Shown here one piece after another: positions 9,725 through 25,276 of a DNA stretch of 64,000 bases. A program made the translations under genes and the position numbers. The notes beneath the pieces are model-generated. The model searched no databases. It was not told the DNA's origin and worked only from the letters and a program-made list of their open reading frames with translations. Location of the stretch: NCBI GenBank assembly GCA_038998625.1, contig JAWADS010000001.1, positions 9,222-73,221 on the forward strand, written 5' to 3'. How positions within the stretch are numbered: position 1 is the first letter of the stretch; the number at the start of each line of letters is the position of its first letter. This DNA is from Candidatus Aenigmatarchaeota archaeon. Its GTDB lineage: Archaea; Aenigmatarchaeota; Aenigmatarchaeia; CG10238-14; SCSR01.

Positions 9725-9731
9725 TCAACCA

Positions 9732-10280: not shown

Positions 10281-10310
10281 AATTAGAATTTGGTAAAAAA
10301 ACGATATAAA

Positions 10311-10772
10311 CTATTTCTCCATTATGGTTTCTAATACTTTTATTTTTTCTTCAAGCTCTTTTTTCTCTTTTAGCAAATTTTCAACTTTTATCTTTTCCTC
10401 TTTTTTTACAGCTTCTTCTAACTCTTCTAATACTTTTGAATACCTTTCTCTCAGCATGTCTAATGTTGGTTTCTTTTCTATAATCTTACTTCTCTTATAC
10501 ACCTGAGCAGAAATACCAAGAATAAATAAGGACAGGAATGCAGTTATAGCAAAAAAAGCTCCTAGCTGAGTTATAAAACCGGCAAAAAATGTAAAAAGGG
10601 CTGTAGATGCAAAAAGTGTAGTAAAAGTTAATGCTAAAAATAGATTTATCCTTCTGTTAAAAATTTTCATTCTTTCAAAAATTCCATATGAAATGAGAAA
10701 AACTATGGCAAAAGGGATAAAAAAATTAAATAAAAAATCCCTGAATTCTAAGCCTAAAATTTCCAAAGCCAT
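10311..10772 (-). CDS. membrane protein, paralog family member D with C-terminal coiled coil
   Basis: N-terminus LGLEFRDFLFNFFIPFAIVFLISYGIFERMKIF; C-terminal EELEEAVKKEEKIK heptads. Confidence 0.45.
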   Translation of the reverse strand: MALEILGLEFRDFLFNFFIPFAIVFLISYGIFERMKIFNRRINLFLALTFTTLFASTALFTFFAGFITQLGAFFAITAFLSLFILGISAQVYKRSKIIEKKPTLDMLRERYSKVLEELEEAVKKEEKIKVENLLKEKKELEEKIKVLETIMEK

Positions 10773-10795
10773 TATTAAAATTTGTTTTTTTTTCT

Positions 10796-11611
10796 TTATT
10801 TTACTTCTTCTCTCAACTCTCCTCTTAACACATCTCTTCTTGCTCTTAGGGCTGCTAAAGTTTCTTGTATCTTAGGTATATCTTCAGGTTTAGCCTCTTT
10901 TAAAGCTCTTTCTAATTTGGCAATCTCACTATTTATCCTTCTCAATTCATCTGTTATCGTCCGCACAATCTCTACTCTACCATATGCAACACTAACACCT
11001 CTATAAGCTAGGAAAAATGCACTAAGAATAAACATTGCAACAAACAAAAGCACAGCATAGAATCCTAAAAAGACAGCAAACATCACATTAATGAATTTTG
11101 CAAATAAACCAAATGGAATTGTAAGAAATGTTACAAGAAAAGCTATTGTTCTAGCAAGGTTTGGAGATGCTGGAAACAAACGCAATTCTTTTAGAAAGGC
11201 ATAAACTAAAATAAAGATTACAGCAAATGGAATTAAAACTAAGTAAATAAATGCCGGCAACCACAACCAATCTCTAGATATGCCTAATATTTCAAAAATA
11301 GTCACCACTATTTCAGGTAATTCGAATCTTCTCCAGTCACTTGGAACATTAAAGGTTATACCTGAAAATGAGGGGAAAAGGAAAACTATAAGTAAAAACA
11401 GGGCAAATAATATCATTCCAATTGGCAATCCTATTTTCGGGCCTTTAATTCCTATAAATAAGAAAAGAATGATTAATACAAAAATTATTATAGTCAGAAG
11501 GGCTATACTTATTTCAAATCCTCCAATATTAATTTCTTGTGCTAAAGCTAATTGGGGCAGCAATAAAATAAAAGTAAAAACTGTTAATAGAAATTTTTTC
11601 ATATACCTCAT
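10796..11611 (-). CDS. signal-peptide membrane protein, paralog family member E with C-terminal coiled coil
   Basis: Signal peptide MKKFLLTVFTFILLLPQLALAQ; internal LGISRDWLWLPAFIYLVLIPF motif; C-terminal charged coiled coil. Confidence 0.45.
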   Translation of the reverse strand: MRYMKKFLLTVFTFILLLPQLALAQEINIGGFEISIALLTIIIFVLIILFLFIGIKGPKIGLPIGMILFALFLLIVFLFPSFSGITFNVPSDWRRFELPEIVVTIFEILGISRDWLWLPAFIYLVLIPFAVIFILVYAFLKELRLFPASPNLARTIAFLVTFLTIPFGLFAKFINVMFAVFLGFYAVLLFVAMFILSAFFLAYRGVSVAYGRVEIVRTITDELRRINSEIAKLERALKEAKPEDIPKIQETLAALRARRDVLRGELREEVK

Positions 11612-11855
11612 AATTTTATTAGTTTTTTAACTTTTTAAATAAATTAAAATTTTAGAAGCAATACCGATAAACTGAAGACTTTAGAGATTTATAGGTAAAA
11701 TAACTTTAAATCCTACATTATTTTTAAGATTAATGCATCAACATGGATATGAAGATAAAATAAAATTGAGCAACATATACTTAAAAGGTCAATGAGACGT
11801 TTTTTTAACGCTAAGCTTAGATTCAGATGAAAGATTAAGATATTGTGAAACCCGA

Positions 11856-12299
11856 ATGCACCCCAGAGACATTTTTAATATTTTATTAATCATTATTAGA
11901 AGAGTAGTAAGTGGAAATGCTATAATACCACCTGTTCGTTTTGGCATAGAAAAAGTGGTATCAAGCAAAACTTCGGAAGATTTAAAAAGTTTACCATCTA
12001 TAGGTAAAACTATGTTAGGGAGGCGTATTTATCCATTTTTCGCAGCATTTAATGCTTTTATAAGAGAGTTATTAAGAGAAGATGAGATTGAAAGGAGATA
12101 CTGGGCAGGATATCATATTTCACAAATCGAAAGATTTAAGGAGGAAGGGAAACAAATGATGAGAGATGCAATCAAAGAATATGAAAATCTGGGAAATTTT
12201 TCAAAGGCATGGTTTTTATATTATAACATGGGTGACTCAGAAAACGCCGATAGGGCTCTTAAACAATATTATCTTAAAAAATATGATATAGAACCTTAA
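11856..12299 (+). CDS. hypothetical protein
   Basis: 147-aa ORF, no recognisable motif. Confidence 0.3.
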   Translation: MHPRDIFNILLIIIRRVVSGNAIIPPVRFGIEKVVSSKTSEDLKSLPSIGKTMLGRRIYPFFAAFNAFIRELLREDEIERRYWAGYHISQIERFKEEGKQMMRDAIKEYENLGNFSKAWFLYYNMGDSENADRALKQYYLKKYDIEP

Positions 12300-12348
12300 A
12301 ACTTCTAGCTTTTAATATTTTAAAAAACAATTTAAAAATTAGAGAAAA

Positions 12349-13170
12349 ATGAATGTTGGGCAGTTTTTTATTTTGGCTCTATTTTTAACTTTTTTAGTTT
12401 TTATTTTACCTGTTATTTTAACCGAGTTCGGGGTTTTGTCGCCTAATATTGTTTCTCTTTTTGAACGAGTTAAAGATATTTTGATTGTTAAAATATTAGG
12501 TTATTCGCCAGAGGCTGCGAGGTTCCCAGATGTGATTTTTACTATAATTCTTCCATTTGGTATAGCTCTAGCTGTTATATTAATTTTCTTAGATTTCATG
12601 CAGAAAAACATCTTTCCTAATGTTTCTCCATCTCTCTTCTTTTTCCTAGGATGGTTTATTTCCTTAATTGCTACAAGATTTTTTGGCCCTATCATATCAG
12701 GTATTTATGCAGGCCTAGGGTTTTATGCAACAGTTGCATTTGGAGCTATATTGATAATAACAATAGCTATAGCATTTAAATTAACTGGTGCTGGCCTGAT
12801 GGGGCTTTTTGTTGCAGGTATAATTGGTGTAATTTTTTCTTTTGGTGGTTTATGGTTTATGGAATATTTAGGATTAACGAAAGTTGGTTTTGGGAATATA
12901 ATTTGGTTAAGTATATTTACAGGTGCTATGGCTGTTGGATTAACATATATGTATGCACGACAAGTGAGAGCTATAGCCCCACAGGTAATAACAGATATAG
13001 ATAGAAGGCTTACTGATTTACACAATGCGTATAATGAACTACTTGCGAAAATAAATCCAGAATTGCCAGCTGAGCAACAGGCGAAATTATATGCTGAACT
13101 GGCAAACTTAAGAACAGAAATAGCTGCATTAGAAGAACAAAAAAGAAAGCTTTTAATTGAAACAGCTTAA
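12349..13170 (+). CDS. membrane protein, paralog family member F with C-terminal coiled coil
   Basis: ILGYSPEAARFPDVIFTIILPFGIALAVILIFLDF motif; C-terminal AEQQAKLYAELANLRTEIAALEEQ. Confidence 0.45.
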   Translation: MNVGQFFILALFLTFLVFILPVILTEFGVLSPNIVSLFERVKDILIVKILGYSPEAARFPDVIFTIILPFGIALAVILIFLDFMQKNIFPNVSPSLFFFLGWFISLIATRFFGPIISGIYAGLGFYATVAFGAILIITIAIAFKLTGAGLMGLFVAGIIGVIFSFGGLWFMEYLGLTKVGFGNIIWLSIFTGAMAVGLTYMYARQVRAIAPQVITDIDRRLTDLHNAYNELLAKINPELPAEQQAKLYAELANLRTEIAALEEQKRKLLIETA

Positions 13171-13802
13171 CCTTCCTTTTTCACTTTTTGTACAACATCA
13201 ACTAAGTTTCTTACACTTTCTATTAAAGCTGGTAAAGTTTCTTTGAAAGCTTTTTCTAAACCCGAAACCCTAGAAGATATATCATTAAAGCCTTGTGTTA
13301 CATCTTCCAATTTTGCCACAACATCCTTTTGTTTAATTAAAGCTAGTCCACTCTGAGATAACTCATTTACTTTTTTAGACAAATTTTCAACTTTTTCTGT
13401 TAATTTAGTGAAGTTCTCATTTATTTTATCAATCTTTTCATTTACTTCATCTATTCTAAATTCAACAATATAATCAATATAGTCTTCTAAGGTGTACTCT
13501 GAGGCAGAAGAAGGTAAAGATGTTTCAGGTATTTCTAAAGGTTTGTTGGATTTTTCTATTTCTTCATAAGTTGGCAACTCTTTTTTTTCTTCCTTTTGTG
13601 GCGGGGATTGAACATTAACTTTTAAAGCTTCGCTCAAAGCTTTATCTATTTCATCTGCAGAAAAGCCTTCCTTTCTTAAGGCATCTATTATTTCAGTTTC
13701 AAAAAATCCCTTAGAAGCCATCTCTTTAACTCTATCAACAGGAACATAGCCTTTACCAATAATTACAGCTGGCTCTTTTTTCTTTAAGAAGGGTATTACC
13801 AT
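13167..13802 (-). CDS. coiled-coil protein, hypothetical (pilus-locus associated)
   Basis: 211 aa, C-terminal two thirds heptad-rich; directly upstream of pilus ATPase locus on the opposite strand. Confidence 0.4.
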   Translation of the reverse strand: MVIPFLKKKEPAVIIGKGYVPVDRVKEMASKGFFETEIIDALRKEGFSADEIDKALSEALKVNVQSPPQKEEKKELPTYEEIEKSNKPLEIPETSLPSSASEYTLEDYIDYIVEFRIDEVNEKIDKINENFTKLTEKVENLSKKVNELSQSGLALIKQKDVVAKLEDVTQGFNDISSRVSGLEKAFKETLPALIESVRNLVDVVQKVKKEG

Positions 13803-13830
13803 AGTTAATAATTTGTTTTTTAAATTTAAA

Positions 13831-14214
13831 TCAAGTCCCTTTTAATAGGATTTTTTCTTCAAGTTCTTTTAATTCCTCTTTAGTAACAAATTTTGATTTT
13901 ACTGGGTTAAACATTTCCACAAATGTTTCTATTACTTTTAACTCAGACTTTGTGGCTGCCTTATCCAAACTTTTCTTTAGTTTTATAACTTCATTTTCAA
14001 ATTGGTCTATCCTTTCCGAAATTTTTTTTATCTGTTCTAAAATTTCTGCTGTATTCTCTTTCATATTATCTCTTAATGCTTTTAAGTTATTGTTAAGAGA
14101 ATCTATGCTTATTTCTATTGTATCTATTCTTTGCTCTAAAGTTTTAATTCTCCTTGAGTCTTCATTCATTCTTCTAACTAGTTCATTTGCTAAAACTTTA
14201 ATATCTTCTACCAC
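13831..14214 (-). CDS. coiled-coil protein, hypothetical
   Basis: 127 aa almost entirely coiled coil. Confidence 0.4.
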   Translation of the reverse strand: MVEDIKVLANELVRRMNEDSRRIKTLEQRIDTIEISIDSLNNNLKALRDNMKENTAEILEQIKKISERIDQFENEVIKLKKSLDKAATKSELKVIETFVEMFNPVKSKFVTKEELKELEEKILLKGT

Positions 14215-14251
14215 AATTAAAGATTTAGTTTTCTATGAATAAATTTTATTT

Positions 14252-16486
14252 ATGCCAGTAGAATATGAAATTGTTGATAAGGTTTTAAAGATAAATGCTC
14301 GAAATTGGGCGATTTCTTCAAGTATTGAGGATTCAGAAGCTGCGATGGCTGTTGTTATTGATAGGCTTATGGAAGCTAAAGATATTGAAAAGATAATAAT
14401 TTCGGATGTTAGAGATAATGAATATGATTACACACAAGTTAAAATTTTAAAAGAAATAGCAGATGCCTATGAAAAGCTTTTAAGTGTTGAAAATATTTTG
14501 AATAAAAATTTTGGTTGTGAACAGCATGCTGCCCAAAGAGTTTCTCAAATAAAATTTTTAATTTTTGAAGTCTTAAGGAAAGACCCTATTCTTGCTTATG
14601 CAAGGGTAAATATGCTAATAACTTTATTATTAAAAAGGATTTTATATCAAAATGAAAAGGAGCAGAGTTGTAGTTATAATTATTTAAATAATGTTTTATA
14701 TCCTATAAAAGAGGCTTTAGAGGCCACAACTTTAATTCAAAGGGTCAGGCCTTATTTAAGATTTTATAGATTTGGTGATAGAACTCTTTACAGAGAGATA
14801 TTTTTCCCCATCGTCAGACCTAGCTTTATGCAAACAAGCTTTAAGATTAAAATTCCCTTTGGCTCAGAGCTTGTTGATAAATATTACATTCTTGACGATA
14901 CATTGGTGCAAGTATTTAAAGTTCCTGGAAACGTTAGATATTTGTATCTAATTATTCCACCAGAATTTAGGCTTTCGGAGGAAGATTATAAAGTTCTTGA
15001 TTTAGCTAGAAAATATTTAGTGGAGCACAAACCTTTAGAAGAAATTACTGAGCCAGAAAAAACTAGAGAAATTTTTATAGCCTATGGAAAAGATTTAATA
15101 AAAAACATAATTAGAGATTTGGGGTTGAAGGTAAGTGAAAAGATTGATACTTTAGCTTCGATATTGGCTAGATATACTGCTGGTTTTGGTGTATTAGAGT
15201 TATTGTTATCAGATGAAAAAGTTCAAGATGTGGTTATTAATTCACCTATAGGTTCTAATCCTATTTATATTTATCATTCAGATTTTGAAGAATGCGAAAC
15301 CAATTTAATCCCTAGTTTGCAAGATGCTGAAAGTTGGGCAACACGTTTTAGATTATATTCTGGTAGACCTTTAGATGAAGCAAATCCTGTTTTAGACACA
15401 GAACTCAATTTACCTTGGGGCAGAGCTAGGGTAGCAGCAATAACAAAGACATTGTCCCCTTATGGTCTAGCTTTTGCTTTTAGAAGGCATAGAGAAAGGC
15501 CATGGACCTTTCCTTTATTTATGAAAGTAAAATATTTTGACCCATTGTTTGCTGGCCTAATGAGCTTTATCATCGACGGCGGAAGGTCTTTATTAATTGC
15601 TGGTGGTCGTAGCTCGGGTAAAACTTCTCTGCTAAACGCTTGTATGCTAGAGATAATGAGAAAGTTCAGAATAATTGTACAAGAAGATACTTTAGAGTTA
15701 AATGTACCTCTAATGATACAACTTGGTTATAATGTACAAAGATTGAAATCTCGCTCTGTAATTACAAAGGTTGAAATAGAGCTACCTCCAGATGAAGCTT
15801 TAAGGACTGCCCTAAGGCTTGGAGATTCTGCTTTAATTGTGGGTGAAGTAAGGTCTTCGGAAAGCGTTGCTTTGTTTGAGGCTATGAGGATCGGTGCCTT
15901 AGCCCATACAGTTGCAGGAACAATACATGGTGAATCAGCTTATGGAGTTTATGATAGGGTTGTTAATGATTTAGGAGTTAAGCCCACAAGTTTTAAGGCA
16001 ATAGATTTAATTGTTTTATCTAATATGTTGCGCTCACCAGATGGATTGCATAGATTCAGAAGGGTTGTTGAGGTTACTGAATTAAGAAAGAAATGGAAAG
16101 AAGATCCTTTAGAAGAGGGAGCTTTTGTTAATTTAATGGAATATTCAGCTAAAGAAGATAGGCTTAAACCAACTGATATTTTAATTTATGGTGAATCAGA
16201 AATTCTAAATGAAATAGCTAAAAGAGTTAGAGAATGGAAAGGAGCTTGGGATTTGGTCTGGGAAAATATTTTACTAAGAGCCAAAATTAAACAGGCTATG
16301 GTTAATTTTGCAGAAAAATTAAATAGACCAGAAATTTTAGAGGCAGATTGGGTTGTAGATAGCAATGAAGTATTTCATTTAATTTCCGATCAAGTTTTAC
16401 AGGAAGTTGGAAGCTTAGATTCAAAGTTGATTTATGAAAGATGGTTAGCTTATTTCAAAGAAAAATTAAAAGCTAGAATTAAATAA
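14252..16486 (+). CDS. type II/IV secretion-system ATPase (FlaI/TadA/PilB family) with roughly 430-aa N-terminal extension
   Basis: Walker A LIAGGRSSGKTS; Asp box IIVQEDTLEL; Walker B/His box LGDSALIVGEVRSSE...LAHTVAGTIHGES. Confidence 0.8.
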   Translation: MPVEYEIVDKVLKINARNWAISSSIEDSEAAMAVVIDRLMEAKDIEKIIISDVRDNEYDYTQVKILKEIADAYEKLLSVENILNKNFGCEQHAAQRVSQIKFLIFEVLRKDPILAYARVNMLITLLLKRILYQNEKEQSCSYNYLNNVLYPIKEALEATTLIQRVRPYLRFYRFGDRTLYREIFFPIVRPSFMQTSFKIKIPFGSELVDKYYILDDTLVQVFKVPGNVRYLYLIIPPEFRLSEEDYKVLDLARKYLVEHKPLEEITEPEKTREIFIAYGKDLIKNIIRDLGLKVSEKIDTLASILARYTAGFGVLELLLSDEKVQDVVINSPIGSNPIYIYHSDFEECETNLIPSLQDAESWATRFRLYSGRPLDEANPVLDTELNLPWGRARVAAITKTLSPYGLAFAFRRHRERPWTFPLFMKVKYFDPLFAGLMSFIIDGGRSLLIAGGRSSGKTSLLNACMLEIMRKFRIIVQEDTLELNVPLMIQLGYNVQRLKSRSVITKVEIELPPDEALRTALRLGDSALIVGEVRSSESVALFEAMRIGALAHTVAGTIHGESAYGVYDRVVNDLGVKPTSFKAIDLIVLSNMLRSPDGLHRFRRVVEVTELRKKWKEDPLEEGAFVNLMEYSAKEDRLKPTDILIYGESEILNEIAKRVREWKGAWDLVWENILLRAKIKQAMVNFAEKLNRPEILEADWVVDSNEVFHLISDQVLQEVGSLDSKLIYERWLAYFKEKLKARIK

Positions 16487-16518
16487 AAATCATTTGATTC
16501 AAATCACAAAATATTTTT

Positions 16519-18468
16519 ATGTATGAGAAAGAAAAGAGTCATTTTAGAAAAGAGAAAAAGATATTAATCTACGAAAAATTGTGCAGTATTTTTAACAATT
16601 TCCCTTCCATTATTCCTAATTATTTTAAAAGGAAATATGATGAAGCAATAATTTTTTCACATATCGATGTTAATTCAAATAGTGCTTTTTGGTTAGGAAT
16701 AACAATACCTATTCTTATATTAGCTATACCTTCCTTGATATTAAGTCTTTTCAATTTATTATCTCCTTCGATTTTTTTGGCCTTTGTCTTTTCGGCAGCT
16801 TATTCTTCATATTATTTCTTAAGCTTTCCTTTGAACTATGCTACTGAATTTAGGTTAAAGGCCACTTCAGAAATGGTTTTATGTGTAAATTATATGGTAA
16901 TAAGTCTGAGAATTTCTCCGAATTTAGAAAATGCTATAAAATTTGCCTCTGAAAATTTAAAGAGTGCATTGGGCTACGATTTGAGAATGGTTTTGTGGAA
17001 TGTCTATACAGGAAAATATTATTCTACCCAAGAAGGTTTTGATCATTTTATTAACAAATGGAAAAGGGAAAACGAAGAATTTGCAGAAGCCTTAACTCTG
17101 TTAAAATCTGCAGTTTTTAAAACTGCTGAAGAAAGGGAAAGGTTTTTATCTAATGCATTAAGAGTGATAATTGACGGATCCAAAACAAGGATTAAAAAAT
17201 ACTCAAGAGAATTAAGGGCTCCAATTGGTGCAGTAAATGCTCTTGGCATATTGCTTCCAGCTTTAGGTCTCGTTTTGATTTCTGTTTTTGCTTTTTTCCT
17301 ACCTTTTAAAATTCCAGCCATTTCTTTTGTTTTAGTTTTTAATTTGATTATACCGGTTATAATTTATTCTTTGTTGAATAACATCCTTTCTAAAAGACCA
17401 TTTTCCTTTCCAGTACCAGATATAACAATTCATCCAAAGTTCAAAAAAGAAAAAACAATTTTGAAAGGAATAATTTCTCTATTACCTTTTATAGCTTTCT
17501 TATCTTATTCTATTCTATCTTTAAGCAGATTACAGAAAGGAGATTTTTTAGGAGAATTAATTTATTCTTTGTTAATAATACTCGGCTTAGCTTTTTCTAT
17601 CATCTTATATGTTTTGTTAATCCATTATCCAAAACTCAAATTAAGGAATGAAATTGAATCTATTGAGTCTGAATTTCCCGATGCTTTATATCAATTGAGC
17701 TTTCAATTAGAAAAAGGATTGCCTATGGAGAGCGCCATTGAATCAATTTTACCTAGAATTAAAACATTACATGTTAAAAATTTCCTTAAAAAAATTAGGG
17801 AAAATATATTAACTTTAGGGCTTACGTTTGAAAGTGCCATTTTCGATAAAAAGTTGGGCGCTATATACTATTTTCCTTCTAAACTTTTAGAAAGTATAAT
17901 GGGCATGGTAGCTAGCATTATGAAAAAAGGTCTAAAAGAAGTATCTAGTTCTATGAGAACTGTATCCAAATATTTATTGGACACTCAAGATGTAATGGAA
18001 AATTTTAGGGATATTTTGAGCGAGTCTGTGGCAGAAATGACCATTCAAAAATATTTACTTTTTCCCATCGTTTCTGCTGTAATAATTGCAATAATTGCGA
18101 TGATATTTCAAGTTTTCTTTATTTTAGGAAATCTGTCAGAAAAATTTATTAAGGGATTAGAAGTGCCTACCGATGTAGGGGAAATAATAAGTGAAGAAAT
18201 AATGTTCGGGTTTTTAAATCTGTCTAATGTTGTGCCTACTTATCAAATTCAGCTGATTGTCGGGTTTTATTTGATTGAGATGATTTTTATTTTATCTTCG
18301 ACTCAAATTATAATTAGCAGAGGAGATGATGTAATATTAAAAAGCGTAGACTTAATGAAGAGTTTAATTGTTGCCATGAGCATTTATTCTTTAGCTTCAA
18401 TCCTATTTTACATAGCTTTTTCTGGTTTAGCTTCTTCTGTCGTCACCAATCTGGGGCAAGTAGGATAG
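16519..18468 (+). CDS. type IV pilus/archaellum assembly platform membrane protein (FlaJ/TadC/PilC-like)
   Basis: 649-aa polytopic membrane protein immediately downstream of secretion ATPase; two TM-bundle regions separated by cytoplasmic domains as in FlaJ. Confidence 0.65.
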   Translation: MYEKEKSHFRKEKKILIYEKLCSIFNNFPSIIPNYFKRKYDEAIIFSHIDVNSNSAFWLGITIPILILAIPSLILSLFNLLSPSIFLAFVFSAAYSSYYFLSFPLNYATEFRLKATSEMVLCVNYMVISLRISPNLENAIKFASENLKSALGYDLRMVLWNVYTGKYYSTQEGFDHFINKWKRENEEFAEALTLLKSAVFKTAEERERFLSNALRVIIDGSKTRIKKYSRELRAPIGAVNALGILLPALGLVLISVFAFFLPFKIPAISFVLVFNLIIPVIIYSLLNNILSKRPFSFPVPDITIHPKFKKEKTILKGIISLLPFIAFLSYSILSLSRLQKGDFLGELIYSLLIILGLAFSIILYVLLIHYPKLKLRNEIESIESEFPDALYQLSFQLEKGLPMESAIESILPRIKTLHVKNFLKKIRENILTLGLTFESAIFDKKLGAIYYFPSKLLESIMGMVASIMKKGLKEVSSSMRTVSKYLLDTQDVMENFRDILSESVAEMTIQKYLLFPIVSAVIIAIIAMIFQVFFILGNLSEKFIKGLEVPTDVGEIISEEIMFGFLNLSNVVPTYQIQLIVGFYLIEMIFILSSTQIIISRGDDVILKSVDLMKSLIVAMSIYSLASILFYIAFSGLASSVVTNLGQVG

Positions 18469-18574
18469 TATGGGCAGCAATTTTATTTCTTATATTAATG
18501 ATTGCATTGTTAGTTCTTTTATACTCCTCTAGCTTAGGAATTATTATGGGTTACTTTAAGCAGAGGTTATTTGG

Positions 18575-18769
18575 ATGACTTTAGCTACTGAACAAATTTT
18601 TTTAGCCATAATTTTCATTTTGGCAATAATTCTTGCAATTATTTTTATTGTTTTAATGAACCCAACTATAAGAATGATGATTTTAGGTTTACCTAAGACC
18701 ATTTGTGAAAAGATAATACCAAGTTTTATTTTAAATGCTCTGAGATTTCTTCATTTAGCTCCATGTTGA
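18575..18769 (+). CDS. small hydrophobic protein, possible minor pilin
   Basis: 64 aa with N-terminal hydrophobic helix; lacks a clear K/R-G class III motif. Confidence 0.25.
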   Translation: MTLATEQIFLAIIFILAIILAIIFIVLMNPTIRMMILGLPKTICEKIIPSFILNALRFLHLAPC

Positions 18770-18806
18770 TTTTACCTTTTTTTATTTCAAAATCAATTAA
18801 TTTAAT

Positions 18807-19472
18807 ATGGCTACAGGTTTATCTTGGTCTGTTTCGCTTATCTTTGCAATTATCATTGGAATATTGATTGTTTTATTAATTTTTGGCGTGGGGAGTGCAC
18901 TAATTCCGGCTATTGCCGATAGAGCTATGAGCTTTGTGTGTAATTTTCCCATCATGGATGTTACTATTTGTAAAGCTTATGCTGAGAAAAGAACTGTGGA
19001 AGTTTGTTTTGAAAAAGAAGGGTGGGGCCAATTACAAGAAGGAATAAGGGAAGAGAGAAAAATAACTTTAACTTTTATTGCTAGACCATTTGAGCTAATT
19101 CCAATTTATAAATGCTCGGAAAGTCATCAAGCCGTTATTAAAGGAGACCCACCAATACTTTCTTGTAATGTATTAATCTCAAATTCTATAAAAAAGCAAT
19201 TTCGTATAGATGTAAAAGTTCCTGTTGAAGTGGTACGCCCCCCACAGACCGATATTCTAATTATTAAACCAAAAGATGACCCAACAATAACAATTTGGAA
19301 AGCTAATGTGAAATATTCAATCGGGGATAGCTCTTGTGGTGTAACTATAGGAGATTCATCCTCACCCGAAAAGCTGACAAAAGGCGAGAGCATTACTTAT
19401 GATGGTTTAAGAGTAACCCTTAAAGATTACGGAATAGGGGGTTTCATTTTTGAATTGTTTTATTCTAAATAA
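18807..19472 (+). CDS. pilin-like protein with class III (type IV prepilin-like) signal peptide
   Basis: MATGLSWSVSLIFAIIIGILIVLLIF N-terminus; Cys-containing extracellular domain. Confidence 0.5.
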   Translation: MATGLSWSVSLIFAIIIGILIVLLIFGVGSALIPAIADRAMSFVCNFPIMDVTICKAYAEKRTVEVCFEKEGWGQLQEGIREERKITLTFIARPFELIPIYKCSESHQAVIKGDPPILSCNVLISNSIKKQFRIDVKVPVEVVRPPQTDILIIKPKDDPTITIWKANVKYSIGDSSCGVTIGDSSSPEKLTKGESITYDGLRVTLKDYGIGGFIFELFYSK

Positions 19473-19509
19473 ATACTTTTAAATAAATGTAAAATCAAAT
19501 TATTATAAA

Positions 19510-19911
19510 ATGGTTTTAAATAAAAAAGGTTTATCAACTTTAACTATTGTAGTAATAGCTCTTATAATTGCAATCATATTAGGTTTTTTAATATTTTCAG
19601 GTTCTGCTTTTCAACTAGGGCGTGGAACGAGTATAGGTGCGGGAATAGGTTGTTCTCAAGTTCTTAGAGCTATGTGTGCAGATTATAAGGAGCAAACTAA
19701 TGGATTATATGATCCCGGAAGATACCCAACAATACTTCAAGCGCATCTAAAGAATATAGAGGATAATTGTAAAAGGGAAGAGGTATATTGTGATCCAAGT
19801 AAGCCAGGTTGTAGAATTAATTTAAATGATGTAGGAAATGTAATAGTATATTGTTGTGGTTCTGTTGGTGGCGACATATCTGTATGTCGGCCTCAAGCGC
19901 CTCCACAATAA
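19510..19911 (+). CDS. archaeal type IV pilin-like protein, Cys-rich
   Basis: MVLNKKGLSTLTIVVIALIIAIILGF matches the class III signal-peptide consensus ([KR]G then hydrophobic); 8 Cys in a 100-aa globular part. Confidence 0.65.
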   Translation: MVLNKKGLSTLTIVVIALIIAIILGFLIFSGSAFQLGRGTSIGAGIGCSQVLRAMCADYKEQTNGLYDPGRYPTILQAHLKNIEDNCKREEVYCDPSKPGCRINLNDVGNVIVYCCGSVGGDISVCRPQAPPQ

Positions 19912-20056
19912 TGAACATGCTATAAGTATAACAGTTCTTCAAGATATTCTGAGATAGATAAAGTATATAGCATATTAGAACTTGTTATTGTAGACCAGAA
20001 TAGCGATCCTTTTTTTAAATTAAAAGCTAAAAATTTGAATAAAATTCTCTATTTTT

Positions 20057-20521
20057 TCACTTTTTTAAAGTTATATTTTCTGTTCTTTCCAATGTTAATA
20101 TATAACCTTTAGCTAAAATTTCTAACTTACAATCCTCTTTTCCAACAAATCTTTTTGTCGAGACATTTAATTCAAAACAATCCCCGGCTATCAAATTCAG
20201 TTTTTCTTTTACTAGGTTTTCATCTATTTTCATTTCTCCTAATTGTTCTATTTTGCATATAAAAGGCATATTACAAGATAACTTTTTTATGGGTCTTATT
20301 CCTGATAGCCAAAAACTAAAGTTACGATAGAAATTCATATCTGAAAGAAAGGCCAACAAACTGTCGTGGGCATCGGTGAATTGCATTTCATTTCTTGTTA
20401 AACCAACAATATGGAATTTCAAAAAGAAAAAATTTAAAATTCCAGATAGTAGTATAGCAATGGAAAAAAGTACTAAGGCAACGGCTAAAGAGATTAAAGA
20501 CAGGCCTTTTTTCACCATCAA
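20057..20521 (-). CDS. archaeal type IV pilin-like protein
   Basis: MMVKKGLSLISLAVALVLFSIAILL class III signal peptide. Confidence 0.6.
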   Translation of the reverse strand: MMVKKGLSLISLAVALVLFSIAILLSGILNFFFLKFHIVGLTRNEMQFTDAHDSLLAFLSDMNFYRNFSFWLSGIRPIKKLSCNMPFICKIEQLGEMKIDENLVKEKLNLIAGDCFELNVSTKRFVGKEDCKLEILAKGYILTLERTENITLKK

Positions 20522-21309
20522 CTCACCTCAAAACTTTGCAAAACTAATCTACCTATTTTGTATCCATCAACTGTAAAATCATAAAGAATTACAGGAAAAG
20601 CATCCATTGAGTAAGTTGATGAGGAGAAAGATTTAGATAGTTCTTTTTCAAAACAAGTTTTTGTTGTGGCCAAGTCAAACACATCTAAGCTTACTCTTTT
20701 TCCTTCTCCCACTTCAATAACAATTCCGATGGGTAGGAATCTGAAGAGAGCTTGAAATAAAACATCTGTAATTCTTATATTTTGGATAGCACATCTAAAA
20801 AAGTTCATAATAGCCCCTTCTGCCAATAAAGCTTCGCCATGACCTCTATAAACCCATTTTTTTCCATCTTCCAAATTTAGTATTGTAAGTAGATGGGCAG
20901 TGTTGGGATATGAATAACTTGCGAATAAGTTATTTTCAGATATTTCATCTAGTTTGGTTATGTTAAAAACCAAATACTCAGAATACTTTTTTGTAATATC
21001 TACATTTGGTTGAATCAAAGAATATTTATTTAATGTCTTAGTGGTATTCTTCACTAAAAACTCCTTTGCTCCGATTAAGGCTTTACCTAAATTTATATTA
21101 TGCCTTCTCGCTTCGTTTTCGGTAATGATGGCATGCAAATTCAAATAACGTGCTATATAAAAGTAATAAATCATAACTGCTAGAAGAATCATTATTAAAA
21201 TTACAATAACATCAAAAAGTTCAGTAGTAGCTTTTTTATTAATCAAAAAATTTTTAACTTTCAAAATTTTATCCCTCTCTAATATCAAATTTTTCTCCGG
21301 CTTTTTCAA
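20518..21309 (-). CDS. membrane-anchored hypothetical protein (pilus locus)
   Basis: N-terminal TM; start overlaps previous gene stop (ATGA). Confidence 0.35.
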   Translation of the reverse strand: MKKPEKNLILERDKILKVKNFLINKKATTELFDVIVILIMILLAVMIYYFYIARYLNLHAIITENEARRHNINLGKALIGAKEFLVKNTTKTLNKYSLIQPNVDITKKYSEYLVFNITKLDEISENNLFASYSYPNTAHLLTILNLEDGKKWVYRGHGEALLAEGAIMNFFRCAIQNIRITDVLFQALFRFLPIGIVIEVGEGKRVSLDVFDLATTKTCFEKELSKSFSSSTYSMDAFPVILYDFTVDGYKIGRLVLQSFEVS

Positions 21310-21676
21310 TTAGGAATGTGCTAACTTTATCTAATTTTTTATCGATTCCGTTAATACCAGCTTTAGCTTTACCAAATTTTACTGTAGCGCGCAAATCTAA
21401 TGGGCCCTCCCTTGTTACAATTTCCACTTTATATATTCTGTCTTTTACTTCAAGATTGTAAACTGCAGGAGTTCCATAAACAATATATACATTACCAGGA
21501 AAAGCGGCGCTAACTGTAACTAATCCAGATAAATCCCTTGCCACGTTTTCTGCAGTATAATGCAAAATAGATAATAAAAAATCGGTAAAAAATTTAGGAA
21601 TAGTTATGATTATTATTGCTCCTAATAAACCCATTAAAGCCATAGTCAAAAGGGTTATCGCAGTTAAACCTTTCAT
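21269..21676 (-). CDS. archaeal type IV pilin-like protein
   Basis: MKGLTAITLLTMALMGLLGAIIIITI class III signal peptide. Confidence 0.55.
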   Translation of the reverse strand: MKGLTAITLLTMALMGLLGAIIIITIPKFFTDFLLSILHYTAENVARDLSGLVTVSAAFPGNVYIVYGTPAVYNLEVKDRIYKVEIVTREGPLDLRATVKFGKAKAGINGIDKKLDKVSTFLIEKAGEKFDIREG

Positions 21677-21704
21677 ATTAATAATTTCATTTTTAGGAAA
21701 TAAA

Positions 21705-21998
21705 TCATCTGACCTTTGCTAAGACTTCACAACTTTCTTTGTTGGGTTCCAAAATTTGTACTTTTTCACATTTTTCTTTCACATTTATCCACCAATTTGG
21801 CTTATTTGCTTCATCAAATAAAAATTTACTCCATTCCTCACAAAAAGTGAAGACATGATTAATACAATCCATTTTGTCTTTTTTCTTTGCTTCTTCTTCA
21901 GCCCAACCTGAAAATGTTATTAAGAGGACTAAAATTAGAATTAAAGTTATTAAAGCGAAAAAAATTATCTTCCAAACTAAACCTTTTTTTGTATTCAT
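21705..21998 (-). CDS. archaeal type IV pilin-like protein, 4 Cys
   Basis: MNTKKGLVWKIIFFALITLILILVLL class III signal peptide. Confidence 0.55.
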   Translation of the reverse strand: MNTKKGLVWKIIFFALITLILILVLLITFSGWAEEEAKKKDKMDCINHVFTFCEEWSKFLFDEANKPNWWINVKEKCEKVQILEPNKESCEVLAKVR

Positions 21999-22009: not shown

Positions 22010-22372
22010 TCATTTTAAAGAAAAAAACCCTGCTATTTCGTTATAGTTACAATATATGGTTGATGCGCCTTCTATAAGTGTCATTATAAAAACCAGGAAG
22101 ACAATAATGCCATATAAATTGCTCAAAAATAATCCCCCTACTAATGATACCATTGGTCCAAATCTGGAAAATATTAAGATGTCTAGAATAAACAAAGCTA
22201 TTAAAACAATTGTTGGCTGCAAAGCTAAAAAAATTATTTTGATGCCTAACGGTAAAGTCCAACCAAAAAGCCTCAATAAAAAGAAAAATGGACCTTCGCT
22301 GATAAAACATGCTAAAGGCTGTAAATTGTTTAAAAAATAATTAAACTGTGCTAAGACAGACAAATCAACCAT
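22010..22372 (-). CDS. small polytopic membrane protein, hypothetical
   Basis: 120 aa, 3 predicted TM. Confidence 0.3.
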   Translation of the reverse strand: MVDLSVLAQFNYFLNNLQPLACFISEGPFFFLLRLFGWTLPLGIKIIFLALQPTIVLIALFILDILIFSRFGPMVSLVGGLFLSNLYGIIVFLVFIMTLIEGASTIYCNYNEIAGFFSLK

Positions 22373-22970
22373 AGGTTACACTTTCCCATTTTTTTTCAGA
22401 AAATATGTCTAACATTTCTTTTACTTGTTCAGATTGAATTTTATTTTTTAACTCATCGAGCTTTTCATCCAAGTATGGAACAAAAAAAGGTGAAAAATGA
22501 AAAAGAAACATTAAGAAAAGTATCGTAATTAGACTCATGGCTAATCCTTTGCCTATACCCTTTTTCATTCTGTTATTGGTTTCGGAATAAGATGAAATAA
22601 AAATTAAAACAAACATACCAGTTATAAACAAAGGGGCTATTAAAACTAAAAAGTTTGAGACATTAAAAATAAATGCAACAAAATTTTCAGAAAAGCCACC
22701 AACAGTTACCAATAGAGATTTCAATATTATTTCTAAATAGATGCTTATATTAAGGGTAGCGTAATAGGATAAAATAACACTTACTGTTATGTTAATCATT
22801 TTCATCATCTCGAAATTTTTTATATTGAATCCCTGCTTTTCTTCTTCTAATTTTTTTACCTCTACACTTTTTTCTAAAGACTTTTCTAAAAGTTTAGAGA
22901 CTTTTTCTAATTGTTTAGCAATTTTTTCACTGATTGCAGATTTGGCCTTATTTAAAATTGCTTTTACCAC
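22365..22970 (-). CDS. membrane protein with N-terminal coiled coil, hypothetical
   Basis: 201 aa; charged helical N-terminus then 4 TM. Confidence 0.35.
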   Translation of the reverse strand: MVKAILNKAKSAISEKIAKQLEKVSKLLEKSLEKSVEVKKLEEEKQGFNIKNFEMMKMINITVSVILSYYATLNISIYLEIILKSLLVTVGGFSENFVAFIFNVSNFLVLIAPLFITGMFVLIFISSYSETNNRMKKGIGKGLAMSLITILFLMFLFHFSPFFVPYLDEKLDELKNKIQSEQVKEMLDIFSEKKWESVTYG

Positions 22971-24898: not shown

Positions 24899-25276
24899 AT
24901 GAATTGGGAGGAATTATATAAAAAATATTCAAAGCCAAAAAAGAAAAAAATATTTCCTATTTTATTAGTTATAGTCTTTTCGACTCTATTTTTTCTCTTC
25001 ATATTATATTATTTTTCTTTACCAGAATTTATAGAGCCACAGGCTGAAATTGTAAGTGATGTAATAACTCTACCTTCTATAAAGGGCGAGCATTGCACAA
25101 TATATATAACTGGTCCAAATAATATAATAAAATTATTTTCGGAATATGATTGTAGCGAATATCAAATTTTTAGGTTTGAGATTTTAGATCTTTTTTCGGA
25201 TATTAAAGGTAGGTATAAGTTAGTTGTTGTTTCTGATTCAGGAAATAATTTGACGAAAAACTTTTTGGTGGTATAA
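24899..25276 (+). CDS. single-pass membrane protein, hypothetical
   Basis: 125 aa, N-terminal TM; stop overlaps start of giant gene (TAATG). Confidence 0.35.
   Translation: MNWEELYKKYSKPKKKKIFPILLVIVFSTLFFLFILYYFSLPEFIEPQAEIVSDVITLPSIKGEHCTIYITGPNNIIKLFSEYDCSEYQIFRFEILDLFSDIKGRYKLVVVSDSGNNLTKNFLVV

What the first reader, a model, noticed from the sequence alone, without database searches (positions are those of the whole stretch)
13167..21998. Type-IV-pilus-like assembly locus with at least six class-III-signal pilin genes, several cysteine-rich
A FlaI/TadA-family ATPase (14252-16486) and a FlaJ/TadC-like platform (16519-18468) are followed by pilin-like genes at 18807, 19510, 20057(-), 21269(-) and 21705(-). 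Their N-termini carry a K/R-G-hydrophobic motif typical of archaeal prepilins (KKGLS, KGLTA, TGLS). Several pilins carry 4-8 cysteines in small globular domains, which is unusual for archaeal pilins and suggests disulfide-stabilised extracellular tips. No archaellum-specific genes (flaB, flaH, flaC/D/E) are visible, so this looks like an adhesive pilus rather than a motility structure. Two coiled-coil genes (13167-14214) flank it.
Basis: partly seen in the sequence, partly recalled or inferred. Interest (0 to 1): 0.65.

Follow-up and report, generated by a model that had tools for sequence, protein, structure and literature searches.

The report
Aenigmatarchaeal type IV pilus locus
This is a real type-IV-pilus-type assembly gene cluster of a tiny DPANN archaeon (Aenigmatarchaeota), conserved across that phylum, whose fast-evolving, cysteine-paired pilin-like proteins are the likeliest tools for sticking to surfaces or host cells; it is a new variant of a known kind of machine, not a new kind.

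Summary
All ORFs are at the stated coordinates. The 744-aa protein is a FlaI/GspE/TadA-superfamily ATPase with intact catalytic motifs. The 649-aa protein is a very divergent GspF/PilC/TadC-type platform, shown through relatives and a predicted structure, not by its own Pfam scan. It is followed by class-III-signal proteins at 19510, 20057, 20518, 21269 and 21705, with degenerate versions at 18575 and 18807. More lie outside the stated range: 23006 (619 aa, 38 Cys) and probably 32715.

The window is from a Candidatus Aenigmatarchaeota MAG. In 80 related loci the core (two coiled-coil genes, divergent ATPase, platform, ordered pilin cassette) recurs. Class-III N-termini are 18-fold enriched downstream of the ATPase. 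Their exported parts hold 3.9% Cys against 1.05% elsewhere, with even Cys counts 160:7, a strong disulfide signature.

19510 and 21705 belong to an unannotated small-pilin family with four invariant Cys. It is predicted all-alpha (pLDDT 89) and has no solved structural relative.

It is not an archaellum. No prepilin peptidase is in the window. Cys-rich archaeal T4P components and dark-matter DPANN pilins were already reported, so novelty is moderate: a new variant of a known kind.

The parts
13167..13802 (-). cc1: 211-aa cytoplasmic protein. It has a small conserved N-terminal helical domain (GFSE..IDxLRKEGFS..EID), a variable linker and a C-terminal coiled coil. Conserved accessory candidate.
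   Evidence: Found in 67 of about 76 related loci, typically 400-600 bp upstream of the ATPase on the opposite strand. Alignment A3 shows invariant G32, F33, E35, L42, R43, G46. Pfam and PDB return only coiled-coil noise. 169 clusters (50% identity) at E<=1e-10, all with the same architecture and no fusions.
13831..14214 (-). cc2: 127-aa coiled-coil cytoplasmic protein, transcribed divergently from the ATPase across a 37-bp spacer. Conserved accessory candidate.
   Evidence: Found in 73 related loci, 12-114 bp from the ATPase start, including loci labelled Nanoarchaeota or Micrarchaeota where other synteny is lost. No specific family.
14252..16486 (+). Assembly ATPase of the GspE/FlaI/TadA superfamily, 744 aa, with an extra N-terminal region of about 200 aa of unknown fold.
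   Evidence: PF00437 2.2e-15. NCBIfam FlaI 122 bits and TadA-family 116 bits, both far below cutoff. PDB 2oap 6e-26, 4ii7 2.5e-16, CpaF 1e-15, with alignment starting at residue ~203. Walker A GGRSSGKTS, Asp box QEDTLE, Walker B LIVGEVR and His box GTIHG are read from the sequence. N-terminal residues 1-202 have no PDB sequence match. More than 100 clusters at 62-76% identity, almost all Aenigmatarchaeota.
16519..18468 (+). Polytopic membrane platform, 649 aa. A highly divergent GspF/PilC/TadC/FlaJ-type protein.
18575..18769 (+). 64-aa member of a conserved small pilin-like family (TM helix, amphipathic helix, C-terminal Cys pair). In this lineage the K/R-G cleavage motif is degenerate (MTLA|TEQIF).
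   Evidence: Iterative HMM search finds the family in 31 loci, always just after the platform. Most members start MKG|, KKG| or RKG|.
18807..19472 (+). 221-aa, 6-Cys pilin-like protein (MATG|LSW). It is the positional equivalent of the large Cys-rich class-III protein that follows the small one in related loci.
   Evidence: The orthologue in L002 starts MNFRRG|LSS and has 12 Cys. Positional equivalents are 232-1065 aa with 8-67 Cys. No Pfam hit.
19510..19911 (+). 133-aa, 8-Cys small pilin (KKG|LSTL) of the four-invariant-Cys family. Candidate major or shaft subunit.
   Evidence: Strict class-III motif. Aligns with the family on all four invariant Cys columns and has four extra Cys.
20057..20521 (-). 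About 152-aa, 4-Cys pilin-like protein (KKG|LSLI). Last gene of the inverted four-gene minor-pilin block.
   Evidence: Strict motif. Orthologues are in the same cassette position in L012 and L016.
20518..21309 (-). 242-263-aa, 2-Cys pilin-like protein. The likely start is at 21246, giving MINKKA|TTELF.
   Evidence: Alternative start found by script. Orthologues with K-G/A motifs in L012, L014, L016, L021, L065 and L070; the L077 orthologue showed no motif.
21269..21676 (-). 135-aa, Cys-free pilin-like protein (MKG|LTAI) with a conserved motif A..VA.DL.GL..S.A.P....I.Y after the helix.
   Evidence: Strict motif. Family found in 20 loci, always after the 21705-type gene.
21705..21998 (-). 97-aa, 4-Cys small pilin (KKG|LVWK). 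Member of the four-invariant-Cys family (C-x7-C ... C-x9-14-C). Predicted all-alpha.
   Evidence: A4: invariant C45, C53, C77, C90. 264 database relatives, all 'hypothetical' with no Pfam domain. AF2 pLDDT 89.1 with helices 5-57, 70-79 and 87-96. No PDB structural match (best E 6.3).
22010..22970 (-). Two lineage-specific membrane proteins (120 aa with 3 TM; 201 aa with an N-terminal coiled coil plus 3 TM), co-directional with and upstream of the minor-pilin block. Their role is unknown.
   Evidence: ORFs and TM counts. No homologues in the 80 loci. Only a sub-threshold T4SS_pilin hit, E 0.0049.
23006..24865 (+). 619-aa class-III protein (MKG|ISTL) with 38 Cys and a run of ~40-aa Cys-rich repeats at the C-terminus (five by my reading; motif C..GGTYN..CxCP..C..C). 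Candidate tip adhesin.
   Evidence: Strict motif. Cys positions and repeats. Weak homologues (E 4e-6 to 6e-4) in three loci (L012, L014, L025); in L012 the homologue ends the cassette. No Pfam hit.
24899..33569 (+). Co-directional downstream genes, possibly part of the same surface module: a 125-aa TM protein, a 2468-aa Sec-signal giant protein with a Cys-rich C-terminus, and a 284-aa protein starting MEKG|QAGL.
   Evidence: Gene spacing of -1 to 33 bp. No Pfam hits. 40 Cys, 36 of them after residue 2064. 153-bp tandem duplication at 32073-32368. No homologues in related loci, so the link is positional only.
8601..13170 (.). Six related polytopic membrane proteins: m1c 8601-9146(-), m1b 9194-9724(-), m1a 9732-10280(-), m2 10311-10772(-), m3 10796-11611(-), m4 12349-13170(+). 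The last three have C-terminal cytoplasmic coiled coils. Possible accessory membrane components. The span also includes the unrelated ORF 11856-12299(+).
   Evidence: Paralogy by blastp. The m1 family occurs in 46 loci and stays within 1-7 kb of the ATPase, even where its orientation is flipped. No Pfam family. The link is weaker than for cc1/cc2, because housekeeping synteny (dph5, trm5) is also conserved in many of these genomes.

Best explanation
The region encodes a type-IV-pilus-type (type IV filament) assembly system of a Candidatus Aenigmatarchaeota (DPANN) archaeon.

Proposed mechanism:
1. Pilin-like precursors with short basic leaders ending in K/R-G/A are inserted into the membrane. 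A PibD/FlaK-type prepilin peptidase encoded elsewhere cuts them after the G/A (inferred; the enzyme is not in the window).
2. The hexameric FlaI/GspE-type ATPase (14252-16486) docks on the cytoplasmic domains of the GspF/PilC-like platform (16519-18468). It uses ATP to lift pilins out of the membrane into a helical filament held together by their long hydrophobic N-terminal helices. This is inferred from the established mechanism of the families named.
3. The ordered, phylum-conserved cassette suggests division of labour. Small four-Cys all-alpha pilins (19510, 21705) would be shaft or priming subunits. A block of four minor pilins (21705, 21269, 20518, 20057) would form an initiation or tip complex. 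Large Cys-rich class-III proteins (18807, 23006) would be displayed adhesins.
4. Exported domains are stabilised by disulfides (near-universal even Cys counts).
5. The coiled-coil proteins cc1 and cc2, and perhaps the coiled-coil-tailed membrane paralogues upstream, are proposed cytoplasmic or membrane scaffold or regulatory partners of the N-terminally extended ATPase.
6. The most likely biological role is attachment to surfaces or to a host cell, as in other episymbionts.

Shown here: homology of the ATPase and platform, class-III motifs, conservation of the cassette, the Cys pattern, and absence of archaellum genes. Inferred: processing, filament formation, roles of individual pilins, roles of cc1/cc2, and adhesion.
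For: Organism: a 100% identical ATPase in an NCBI Aenigmatarchaeota MAG on a 622-kb contig; archaeal SRP RNA and housekeeping genes in the window.

ATPase. Catalytic motifs are intact.

Class-III N-termini: KG|LS, KG|LT and KG|IS match experimentally supported archaeal sites (KAIS, RALS, KGQV; PMC4371748). They cluster after the ATPase: 179/493 against 25/836, p=4e-60.

Conserved gene order over the related loci that extend >=7 kb past the ATPase (39 examined): platform, small 2-Cys pilin, large Cys-rich class-III protein, 4-Cys small pilins, then 21269-type, 20518-type, 20057-type and a large Cys-rich class-III protein.

Disulfide signature: Cys is 3.9% against 1.05% (Mann-Whitney p=4e-43). 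Even:odd Cys counts are 160:7, against 146:100 in upstream non-class-III ORFs (Fisher p=4e-19). All window pilin-like proteins have even counts.

Four invariant Cys in the small-pilin family. The AF2 model places two of them in the C-terminal part of the long N-terminal helix and one in each of two short helices.

cc2 and cc1 stay adjacent to the ATPase in nearly all loci, including distant ones.

Literature: T4P loci with unrecognisable 'dark matter' pilins in DPANN (PMC6393860); FlaI/FlaJ homologues in most Aenigmarchaeota MAGs (PMC8407114); T4P needed for episymbiosis in CPR Saccharibacteria (PMC9894109, title seen).
Against: - No prepilin peptidase (Peptidase_A24) is encoded in the 64-kb window. 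The polytopic candidates are M50 proteases or YdjM.
- Two locus members (18575, 18807) lack the basic residue at -2 and might not be processed.
- The platform gives no direct Pfam hit.
- No pilin hits any curated pilin or archaellin family, so 'pilin' rests on N-terminal features, context and one predicted structure.
- The predicted head of the small pilin is all-alpha, unlike the beta-rich heads of archaeal pilins solved so far (my own knowledge).
- No filament, adhesion or expression data exist.
- Part of the neighbourhood conservation could reflect general synteny in these small genomes: dph5, trm5 and M50 are also often conserved upstream.
Confidence: 0.75

Rival explanations
1. A pseudopilus or surface-display system, analogous in logic to the Sulfolobus bindosome or a type II secretion pseudopilus. 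The ATPase and platform would assemble only a short stalk whose job is to anchor or export the large Cys-rich class-III proteins (221-1065 aa) and perhaps the giant 2468-aa protein, rather than to build a long adhesive pilus.
For: Large class-III proteins with 8-67 Cys are a constant part of the cassette. The window has two (18807, 23006), followed by a giant secreted protein. The small pilins are tiny (about 55-70 exported residues). Class-III signals on non-pilin surface proteins are established for the bindosome (PMC4858521 and PMC4371748).
Against: NCBIfam BasE scores 43.6 bits against a cutoff of 1000. No substrate-binding-protein domains are found. Multi-copy small pilins with highly conserved N-terminal helices (the VAIPYIIAL type, up to 3-4 copies per locus) are typical of major filament subunits. 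The giant protein has no homologues in related loci.
Confidence: 0.15
2. An archaellum (motility) locus, as suggested by database labels such as 'flagellar protein FlaI' or 'archaellum biosynthesis ATPase' and by the report of FlaG/FlaI/FlaJ in Aenigmarchaeota.
For: JGI names for homologues. The best NCBIfam model is FlaI. Li et al. 2021 list FlaG, FlaI and FlaJ in most Aenigmarchaeota MAGs.
Against: The FlaI equivalog scores 122 bits against a cutoff of 550, and the TadA family scores nearly the same at 116. The best solved relative is afGspE, not FlaI. No FlaH or KaiC-like gene was found; the only RecA-fold protein is RadA, Rad51 1.8e-93. No archaellin (PF01917), FlaF/G or FlaC/D/E hit on any locus protein at E<=1. 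According to PMC4858521, every archaellum has seven components, FlaH and archaellins among them.
Confidence: 0.03
3. A DNA-uptake or cell-cell exchange pilus (competence-type or Ups-like), rather than an adhesion organelle.
For: T4P serve DNA uptake in CPR bacteria and aggregation or DNA exchange in Sulfolobales (PMC6744442, PMC11823120). DPANN genomes depend on external nucleotides (own knowledge).
Against: No ComEC-, Ced- or DNA-binding components were found among the locus proteins scanned. ComGA scores 42 bits against a cutoff of 300. There is no positive evidence.
Confidence: 0.05

Closest known systems
Archaeal adhesive type IV pili (Aap and Ups of Sulfolobales; PilA pili of Haloferax; Epd pili of Methanococcus)
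   Same: The same three-part logic: a FlaI/GspE-type ATPase, a TadC/FlaJ/PilC-type platform and class-III-signal pilins encoded next to them. K/R-G/A cleavage motifs are followed by a hydrophobic helix.
   Different: The ATPase is about 200 aa longer at the N-terminus and reaches no curated equivalog threshold. The platform is too divergent for a direct Pfam hit. The pilins hit no known pilin family. The small ones are predicted all-alpha with four invariant Cys. The locus carries 8-9 pilin-like genes in a fixed order, plus two conserved coiled-coil proteins.
Thermoproteales T4P systems of ATPase subclade 4E (Makarova, Koonin and Albers 2016, PMC4858521)
   Same: Nearly all components carry multiple conserved cysteines expected to form disulfides. 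They have many small minor pilins plus large signal-peptide proteins proposed as adhesins, and they evolve very fast.
   Different: Different phylum (DPANN against TACK). No sequence relationship of the pilins was tested or seen. The coiled-coil pair and the N-terminal ATPase extension are not described for 4E.
Subclade 4F systems of Halobacteria, methanomicrobia and nanoarchaea (PMC4858521)
   Same: ATPases often have an extra, variable N-terminal domain. An intracellular coiled-coil protein (arCOG07564) is encoded in the halobacterial loci. [quoted passage not shown]
   Different: Membership of the window ATPase in subclade 4F was not tested (no reference sequences available). The 4F N-terminal domain is described as cysteine-rich, but the window's 744-aa ATPase has only 4 Cys. 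cc1 and cc2 gave only sub-threshold hits to the coiled-coil family DUF7310.
Bacterial T4P/T2SS minor-pilin priming complexes with a large tip adhesin (FimU-PilVWX-PilY1; GspHIJK)
   Same: A fixed-order block of about four small pilin-like genes, followed by a large protein, is encoded with the machinery. This is an analogy based on established knowledge of those systems.
   Different: No sequence or structural homology is shown. The roles are inferred from gene order and size only.
Type IV pili of CPR/Patescibacteria episymbionts
   Same: An ultra-small, host-dependent lineage keeps a T4P system despite genome reduction. Disulfide chemistry is linked to pilins in CPR (PMC6744442). T4P trigger episymbiosis in Saccharibacteria (PMC9894109).
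   Different: Bacterial PilB/PilC/PilT machinery and bacterial prepilins. No thiol-disulfide oxidoreductase or VKOR was looked for or found in this window.

Membership tests
Type IV filament / archaeal type IV pilus system | Secretion ATPase of the GspE/FlaI/TadA (PF00437) family with Walker A, Asp box, Walker B and His box | tested here: met
   PF00437 2.2e-15. PDB 2oap 6e-26, 4ii7 2.5e-16, CpaF 1e-15. Motifs GGRSSGKTS, QEDTLE, LIVGEVR and GTIHG are read from the sequence.
Type IV filament / archaeal type IV pilus system | Polytopic platform protein with GspF/PilC/TadC (PF00482) cytoplasmic domains, encoded next to the ATPase | tested here: met
Type IV filament / archaeal type IV pilus system | Subunits with class III signal peptides: a short basic leader, G/A at -1, then a hydrophobic helix of about 20 residues | tested here: met
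   A rule-based scan (pattern recalled from FlaFind, not the program itself) gives strict matches at 19510, 20057, 21269 and 23006. Near matches are at 21705 and 20518. 18575 and 18807 qualify by orthology only. Enrichment p=4e-60.
Type IV filament / archaeal type IV pilus system | Prepilin peptidase of the A24 family (PibD/FlaK/EppA) in the genome | not testable with these tools
   None in the 64-kb window. No GxGD polytopic protein was found, and the candidates are M50 proteases or YdjM. The rest of the 622-kb contig could not be read.
Type IV filament / archaeal type IV pilus system | Assembly of an extracellular filament | not testable with these tools
   No imaging or proteomic data. The organism is uncultured.
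Archaellum | FlaI orthologue (NCBIfam NF058587 equivalog threshold) | tested here: not met
   122.4 bits against a cutoff of 550. The TadA-family model scores almost the same, 115.7.
Archaellum | FlaH (KaiC-like), archaellins (PF01917), FlaF/FlaG and FlaC/D/E or FlaX in the locus | tested here: not met
   No such Pfam or NCBIfam hit on any locus protein at E<=1. The only weak FlaC_arch hits (E 0.0056 for the window cc1; 8e-4 for one relative) sit among dozens of generic coiled-coil hits. The only RecA-fold gene in the window is RadA.
Sulfolobus-type bindosome (Bas) | BasE-type ATPase and class-III substrate-binding proteins | tested here: not met
   BasE model scores 43.6 bits against a cutoff of 1000. 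No solute-binding domains in the class-III proteins.
Bacterial Tad/Flp pilus | TadA/CpaF equivalog, separate TadB and TadC, Flp pilin | tested here: not met
   TIGR03819 scores 115.7 bits against a cutoff of 373. There is a single 649-aa platform gene. No Flp family hit.
Makarova 2016 ATPase subclade 4F (or any named archaeal T4P clade) | Phylogenetic placement of the ATPase within the clade | not tested
Only shared traits are noted (an N-terminal extension and a neighbouring coiled-coil gene), taken from PMC4858521.

The most novel reading that the evidence does not exclude
The locus is the type specimen of a distinct, phylum-wide DPANN branch of type IV filament machines with three features:
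1. Its shaft is built from minimal all-alpha pilins. Two short C-terminal helices are stapled to the N-terminal helix by two invariant disulfides. This pilin head architecture has no solved relative.
2. Its motor uses new accessory parts: an N-terminal ATPase domain of about 200 aa, the cc1/cc2 coiled-coil pair, and coiled-coil-tailed membrane paralogues. These would play the scaffold role that FlaX or PilMNO play elsewhere.
3. It displays hypervariable, disulfide-knotted giant adhesins that determine host specificity of Aenigmatarchaeota.
Probability: 0.3. Interest if true: 0.65.

Novelty: new variant of a known kind. Interest (0 to 1): 0.42.

Why it matters
Aenigmatarchaeota have no cultured representative that I know of, and how they attach to hosts or surfaces is unknown. 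This locus is one of the few multi-gene systems conserved across the phylum. The cytoplasmic ATPase is strongly conserved (62-76% identity), the platform much less (37-40%), and the surface proteins evolve very fast (<25%). That is the pattern expected for a machine whose exposed parts track hosts or escape defences.

The analysis gives names and testable roles to about ten 'hypothetical' genes per genome. It defines an unannotated four-cysteine pilin family (264 database relatives, no Pfam). It also gives a simple sequence signature, even Cys counts after a class-III helix, for finding exported disulfide-bonded proteins in DPANN genomes.

It corrects 'archaellum/FlaI' labels attached to homologues of this ATPase in public databases. 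It does not overturn anything known about type IV pili.

Tried and rejected
- Direct Pfam and NCBIfam scans of the platform and all pilin-like proteins gave nothing usable. The platform had to be identified through relatives and structure.
- cc1 and cc2: Pfam scans of 34-36 family members each, and a profile search of PDB for cc1, gave only generic coiled-coil matches (LXG, DUF7310, FlaC_arch, GCN4, viral spikes). I reject any family assignment for them.
- A full-library search with cc1, looking for informative domain fusions, found 169 relatives at E<=1e-10. All have the same architecture.
- The ATPase N-terminal 202 residues have no PDB sequence match.
- Foldseek with the small-pilin model against PDB gave no significant match. 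The top hit was the disulfide-stapled CHCH protein Coa6 at E 6.3, which I do not treat as evidence.
- Global Foldseek hits of the platform model to BetP and similar transporters have TM about 0.1 and are noise.
- phmmer and iterated HMM searches for 19510, 20057, 23006, 32715, 22010, 22365, 24899 and the giant protein in the 80 loci found few or no homologues. These are lineage-specific or too divergent.
- The sigma-70 promoter and intrinsic-terminator scan is uninformative for an archaeon: 64 found against 55 expected.
- The search for a prepilin peptidase in the window was negative.
- Cys-Cys distances in the AF2 model could not be measured because model coordinates are not exposed.

Full report
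**Where the window comes from**

The window is AT-rich (about 31% GC). It carries an archaeal SRP RNA and tRNAs. Its housekeeping genes are typically archaeal: RadA, ribosomal protein S3Ae, RecJ/GAN-like DHH phosphoesterase, topoisomerase VI A and B, aIF-2B family and an S-layer protein.

The 744-aa ATPase is 100% identical to an NCBI protein from a Candidatus Aenigmatarchaeota MAG, on a 622-kb contig. This is therefore a chromosomal region of a DPANN archaeon.

**Checking the observation**

So do the quoted N-terminal motifs and cysteine counts.

I wrote a rule-based scan using the FlaFind-type pattern [KRDE][GA][ALIFQMVED][ILMVTAS]x3, which I recalled from memory, followed by a hydrophobic stretch. 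Results in the window:
- Strict matches only at 19510, 20057, 21269 and 23006.
- Near matches at 21705 (KKG|LVWK), and at 20518 if it starts at 21246 (MINKKA|TTELF).
- Looser matches at 32715 (MEKG|QAGL) and 44366.

These sites resemble experimentally supported archaeal processing sites such as KAIS, RALS and KGQV (PMC4371748).

18807 (MATG|LSW) and the 64-aa ORF 18575 (MTLA|TEQIF) lack the basic residue. Their orthologues in related genomes have canonical motifs, for example MNFRRG|LSS, MKG| and KKG|.

The claim of 'at least six' pilin-like genes is therefore right.

**The two machinery proteins**

*ATPase.* It matches PF00437 (2.2e-15). Among solved structures it matches A. fulgidus GspE (2oap, 6e-26), S. 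acidocaldarius FlaI (4ii7, 2.5e-16) and Caulobacter CpaF (1e-15). Walker A, Asp box, Walker B and His box are intact.

Alignment to the solved homologues begins at about residue 203. The protein therefore has an extra N-terminal region of about 200 aa, which has no sequence match in PDB.

It reaches no curated NCBIfam equivalog threshold:

| NCBIfam model | Score (bits) | Cutoff (bits) |
|---|---|---|
| FlaI | 122 | 550 |
| TadA family | 116 | 373 |
| BasE | 44 | 1000 |

*Platform.* The 649-aa protein has nine predicted TM segments and no Pfam or NCBIfam hit of its own. Two lines of evidence identify it:
- 11 of 32 relatives hit PF00482 T2SSF, best 6.7e-9.

I accept it as a very divergent GspF/PilC/TadC-type platform.

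**Comparative genomics**

A scan of one genome per species returned 80 loci encoding relatives of the ATPase. Almost all are labelled Aenigmatarchaeota. A few are labelled Nanoarchaeota, Micrarchaeota or Woesearchaeota. ORF calling plus phmmer and iterated HMM searches show a conserved architecture.

*Upstream and core:*
- cc2 lies 12-114 bp upstream of the ATPase on the opposite strand in 73 loci.
- cc1 follows cc2 in 67 loci.
- The platform follows the ATPase in 58 loci, sometimes with one to three small pilin genes in between.

*The pilin cassette, in order:*
1. A small 2-4-Cys class-III protein (the 18575 family, 31 loci).
2. A large Cys-rich class-III protein (232-1065 aa, 8-67 Cys; the position of 18807).
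3. One to four small 4-10-Cys pilins with a highly conserved helix (the 'VAIPYIIAL' type).
4. A 21705-type 4-Cys pilin.
5. A Cys-free 21269-type protein (20 loci).
6. A 20518-type protein.
7. A 20057-type protein.
8. A large Cys-rich class-III protein (the position of 23006).

In the window the four-gene block 21705 to 20057 is inverted relative to loci such as L012, L016 and L021. In L014 the whole cassette is inverted.

Sequence identity to the window's proteins falls from 62-76% for the ATPase, to 37-40% for the platform, to under 25% for the pilins.

**Cysteines**

Across the loci:
- Class-III-like N-termini occur in 179 of 493 ORFs downstream of the ATPase, against 25 of 836 upstream (Fisher p=4e-60).
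- Their exported parts contain 3.9% Cys, against 1.05% in other ORFs (medians 4.2% and 0.54%; p=4e-43).
- Among class-III proteins with at least two Cys, 160 have an even number and 7 an odd number. The control set of upstream non-class-III ORFs gives 146:100 (Fisher p=4e-19).

In the window every pilin-like protein has an even count: 2, 6, 8, 4, 2, 0, 4 and 38. This is strong indirect evidence that the cysteines are all paired in disulfides.

An alignment of 21705, 19510 and 22 relatives shows four invariant Cys with the spacing C-x7-C ... C-x9-14-C. A profile search found 264 relatives, all annotated 'hypothetical' and without any Pfam domain.

AF2 on 21705 with 88 relatives gives a confident model (pLDDT 89.1). 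It has a 53-residue N-terminal helix (5-57) and two short helices (70-79, 87-96). Cys45 and Cys53 lie in the C-terminal part of the long helix, and Cys77 and Cys90 in the two short helices. The geometry is consistent with two disulfide staples, but I could not measure distances.

Foldseek finds no solved relative (best E 6.3). The head is thus predicted to be all-alpha, unlike the beta-rich heads of the archaeal pilins solved to date (own knowledge).

23006 carries a C-terminal run of ~40-aa Cys-rich repeats (five by my reading).

**What it is not**

No locus protein hits archaellin, FlaF/G, FlaH or FlaC/D/E families. The FlaI equivalog test fails. The only RecA-fold protein in the window is RadA.

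According to Makarova et al. 2016, every archaellum has seven components, including FlaH and archaellins. The archaellum reading is therefore rejected, even though 'FlaI' and 'archaellum biosynthesis ATPase' labels are attached to homologues and Li et al. 2021 listed FlaG/FlaI/FlaJ in Aenigmarchaeota.

Bindosome and bacterial Tad membership tests also fail.

**Mechanism proposed**

*Shown:* the parts list of a type IV filament machine, a conserved ordered pilin cassette and a disulfide signature.

*Inferred from the established mechanism of these families:*
- Prepilins are cut after G/A by an A24 peptidase encoded elsewhere.
- The ATPase hexamer, docked on the platform's cytoplasmic domains, drives subunit extraction and polymerisation through the N-terminal helices.
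- The multi-copy small 4-Cys pilins are shaft candidates.
- The fixed four-gene block plus a large Cys-rich protein resembles, by analogy only, bacterial minor-pilin priming complexes with a tip adhesin.

cc1 and cc2 are cytoplasmic (no TM, no Cys) and are the most constant neighbours of the ATPase, even where other synteny is lost. I propose they are scaffold or regulatory partners, perhaps of the extra N-terminal ATPase domain. They have no detectable family beyond coiled-coil noise.

The six paralogous polytopic membrane proteins upstream (8601-13170) include three with cytoplasmic coiled-coil tails. They may belong to the system too. That link is weaker, because neighbouring housekeeping genes are also syntenic in many of these genomes.

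Adhesion to surfaces or hosts is the most likely role, by analogy with archaeal Aap/Ups/PilA pili and with CPR episymbionts.

**Comparison with the literature and novelty**

Prior work already covers much of the concept:
- Makarova, Koonin and Albers 2016 documented the great diversity of archaeal T4P loci. This includes Thermoproteales systems in which almost all components carry conserved cysteines. It also includes subclade 4F, with N-terminally extended ATPases, a coiled-coil protein, and nanoarchaeal members whose pilins could not be found.
- Makarova et al. 2019 showed DPANN T4P loci whose 'dark matter' neighbours are predicted pilins.
- Jarett et al. 2018 found high nonsynonymous diversity in a Nanoarchaeota FlaJ/TadC homologue.

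My searches of the held library found no description of several points. These are the Aenigmatarchaeota-wide conserved cassette, the four-invariant-Cys all-alpha pilin family, the even-Cys signature, and the cc1/cc2 pair.

I therefore rate this a new variant of a known kind, of moderate interest.

**Limits**

- No prepilin peptidase is in the window.
- There is no ATPase phylogeny.
- There is no access to model coordinates.
- All functional statements about individual pilins, cc1/cc2 and adhesion are inference.

Noticed in passing
window 8601-13170: Six related small polytopic membrane proteins in a row: three ~180-aa 5-TM paralogues, and three more-distant relatives that each end in a cytoplasmic coiled coil. 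There is no Pfam family. The m1 family stays next to cc1 and the ATPase in most related loci, even when its orientation is flipped.
   Followed up: partly
window 25276-32682: A giant 2468-aa protein with a Sec-type signal and no Pfam hit. It has 40 Cys, nearly all in the last 400 residues. A 153-bp x1.9 tandem duplication (32073-32368, 86% identity) encodes a 51-aa six-Cys module. No homologue was found in the 80 related loci.
   Followed up: partly
window 14215-14251 and 22971-23005: Two very short (37 and 35 bp), AT-rich divergent intergenic spacers separate head-to-head genes (cc2 and the ATPase; 22365 and 23006). This implies tightly packed or shared bidirectional archaeal promoters and probably leaderless transcripts.
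   Followed up: no
proteins P0064, P0111, P0113 (homologues of window 14252-16486): Some orthologues of the ATPase are about 1250 aa and carry intein and homing-endonuclease domains (PF14528, PF14890). The ATPase gene is therefore an intein target in part of the phylum.
   Followed up: no
window 38015-38235 and 55123-55266: Rfam reports six tRNA genes, but ARAGORN finds only two. Several Rfam hits span 101-144 nt, which suggests intron-containing or otherwise atypical tRNA genes.
   Followed up: no
window 21705-21998 (protein P0178): The identical 97-aa protein is filed in NCBI under 'Candidatus Pacearchaeota archaeon'. The identical ATPase and platform are filed under Aenigmatarchaeota. All three list a longest carrying contig of 622,054 bp. 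This looks like an inconsistent taxonomic label between MAG submissions.
   Followed up: no
window 32715-33569 and 44366-45493: Two further proteins have class-III-like N-termini with Gln at +1 (MEKG|QAGL, MLKKA|QARIDEF), as in substrates of the EppA-type peptidase of methanogens. Neither has a Pfam hit.
   Followed up: partly
window 20057-21998 compared with L012, L016, L021, L014: The four-gene minor-pilin block is inverted in the window relative to most related loci. In L014 the whole cassette is inverted. The cassette order is kept while its orientation changes.
   Followed up: yes
window 35543-35818: A small 91-aa membrane-anchored protein with 8 Cys (including CC and C-x-x-x-x-C-C patterns) and no Pfam hit. 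It lies between an AMP-phosphorylase-like gene and an aIF-2B-family gene. It may be another exported disulfide-rich protein.
   Followed up: no
window 52920-54226: A MinD/ParA-type P-loop ATPase (PF10609/PF01656) is followed by a small coiled-coil ORF, about 30 kb from the pilus locus. MinD/FleN-type regulators accompany some archaeal T4P loci according to PMC4858521, but no link was tested here.
   Followed up: no
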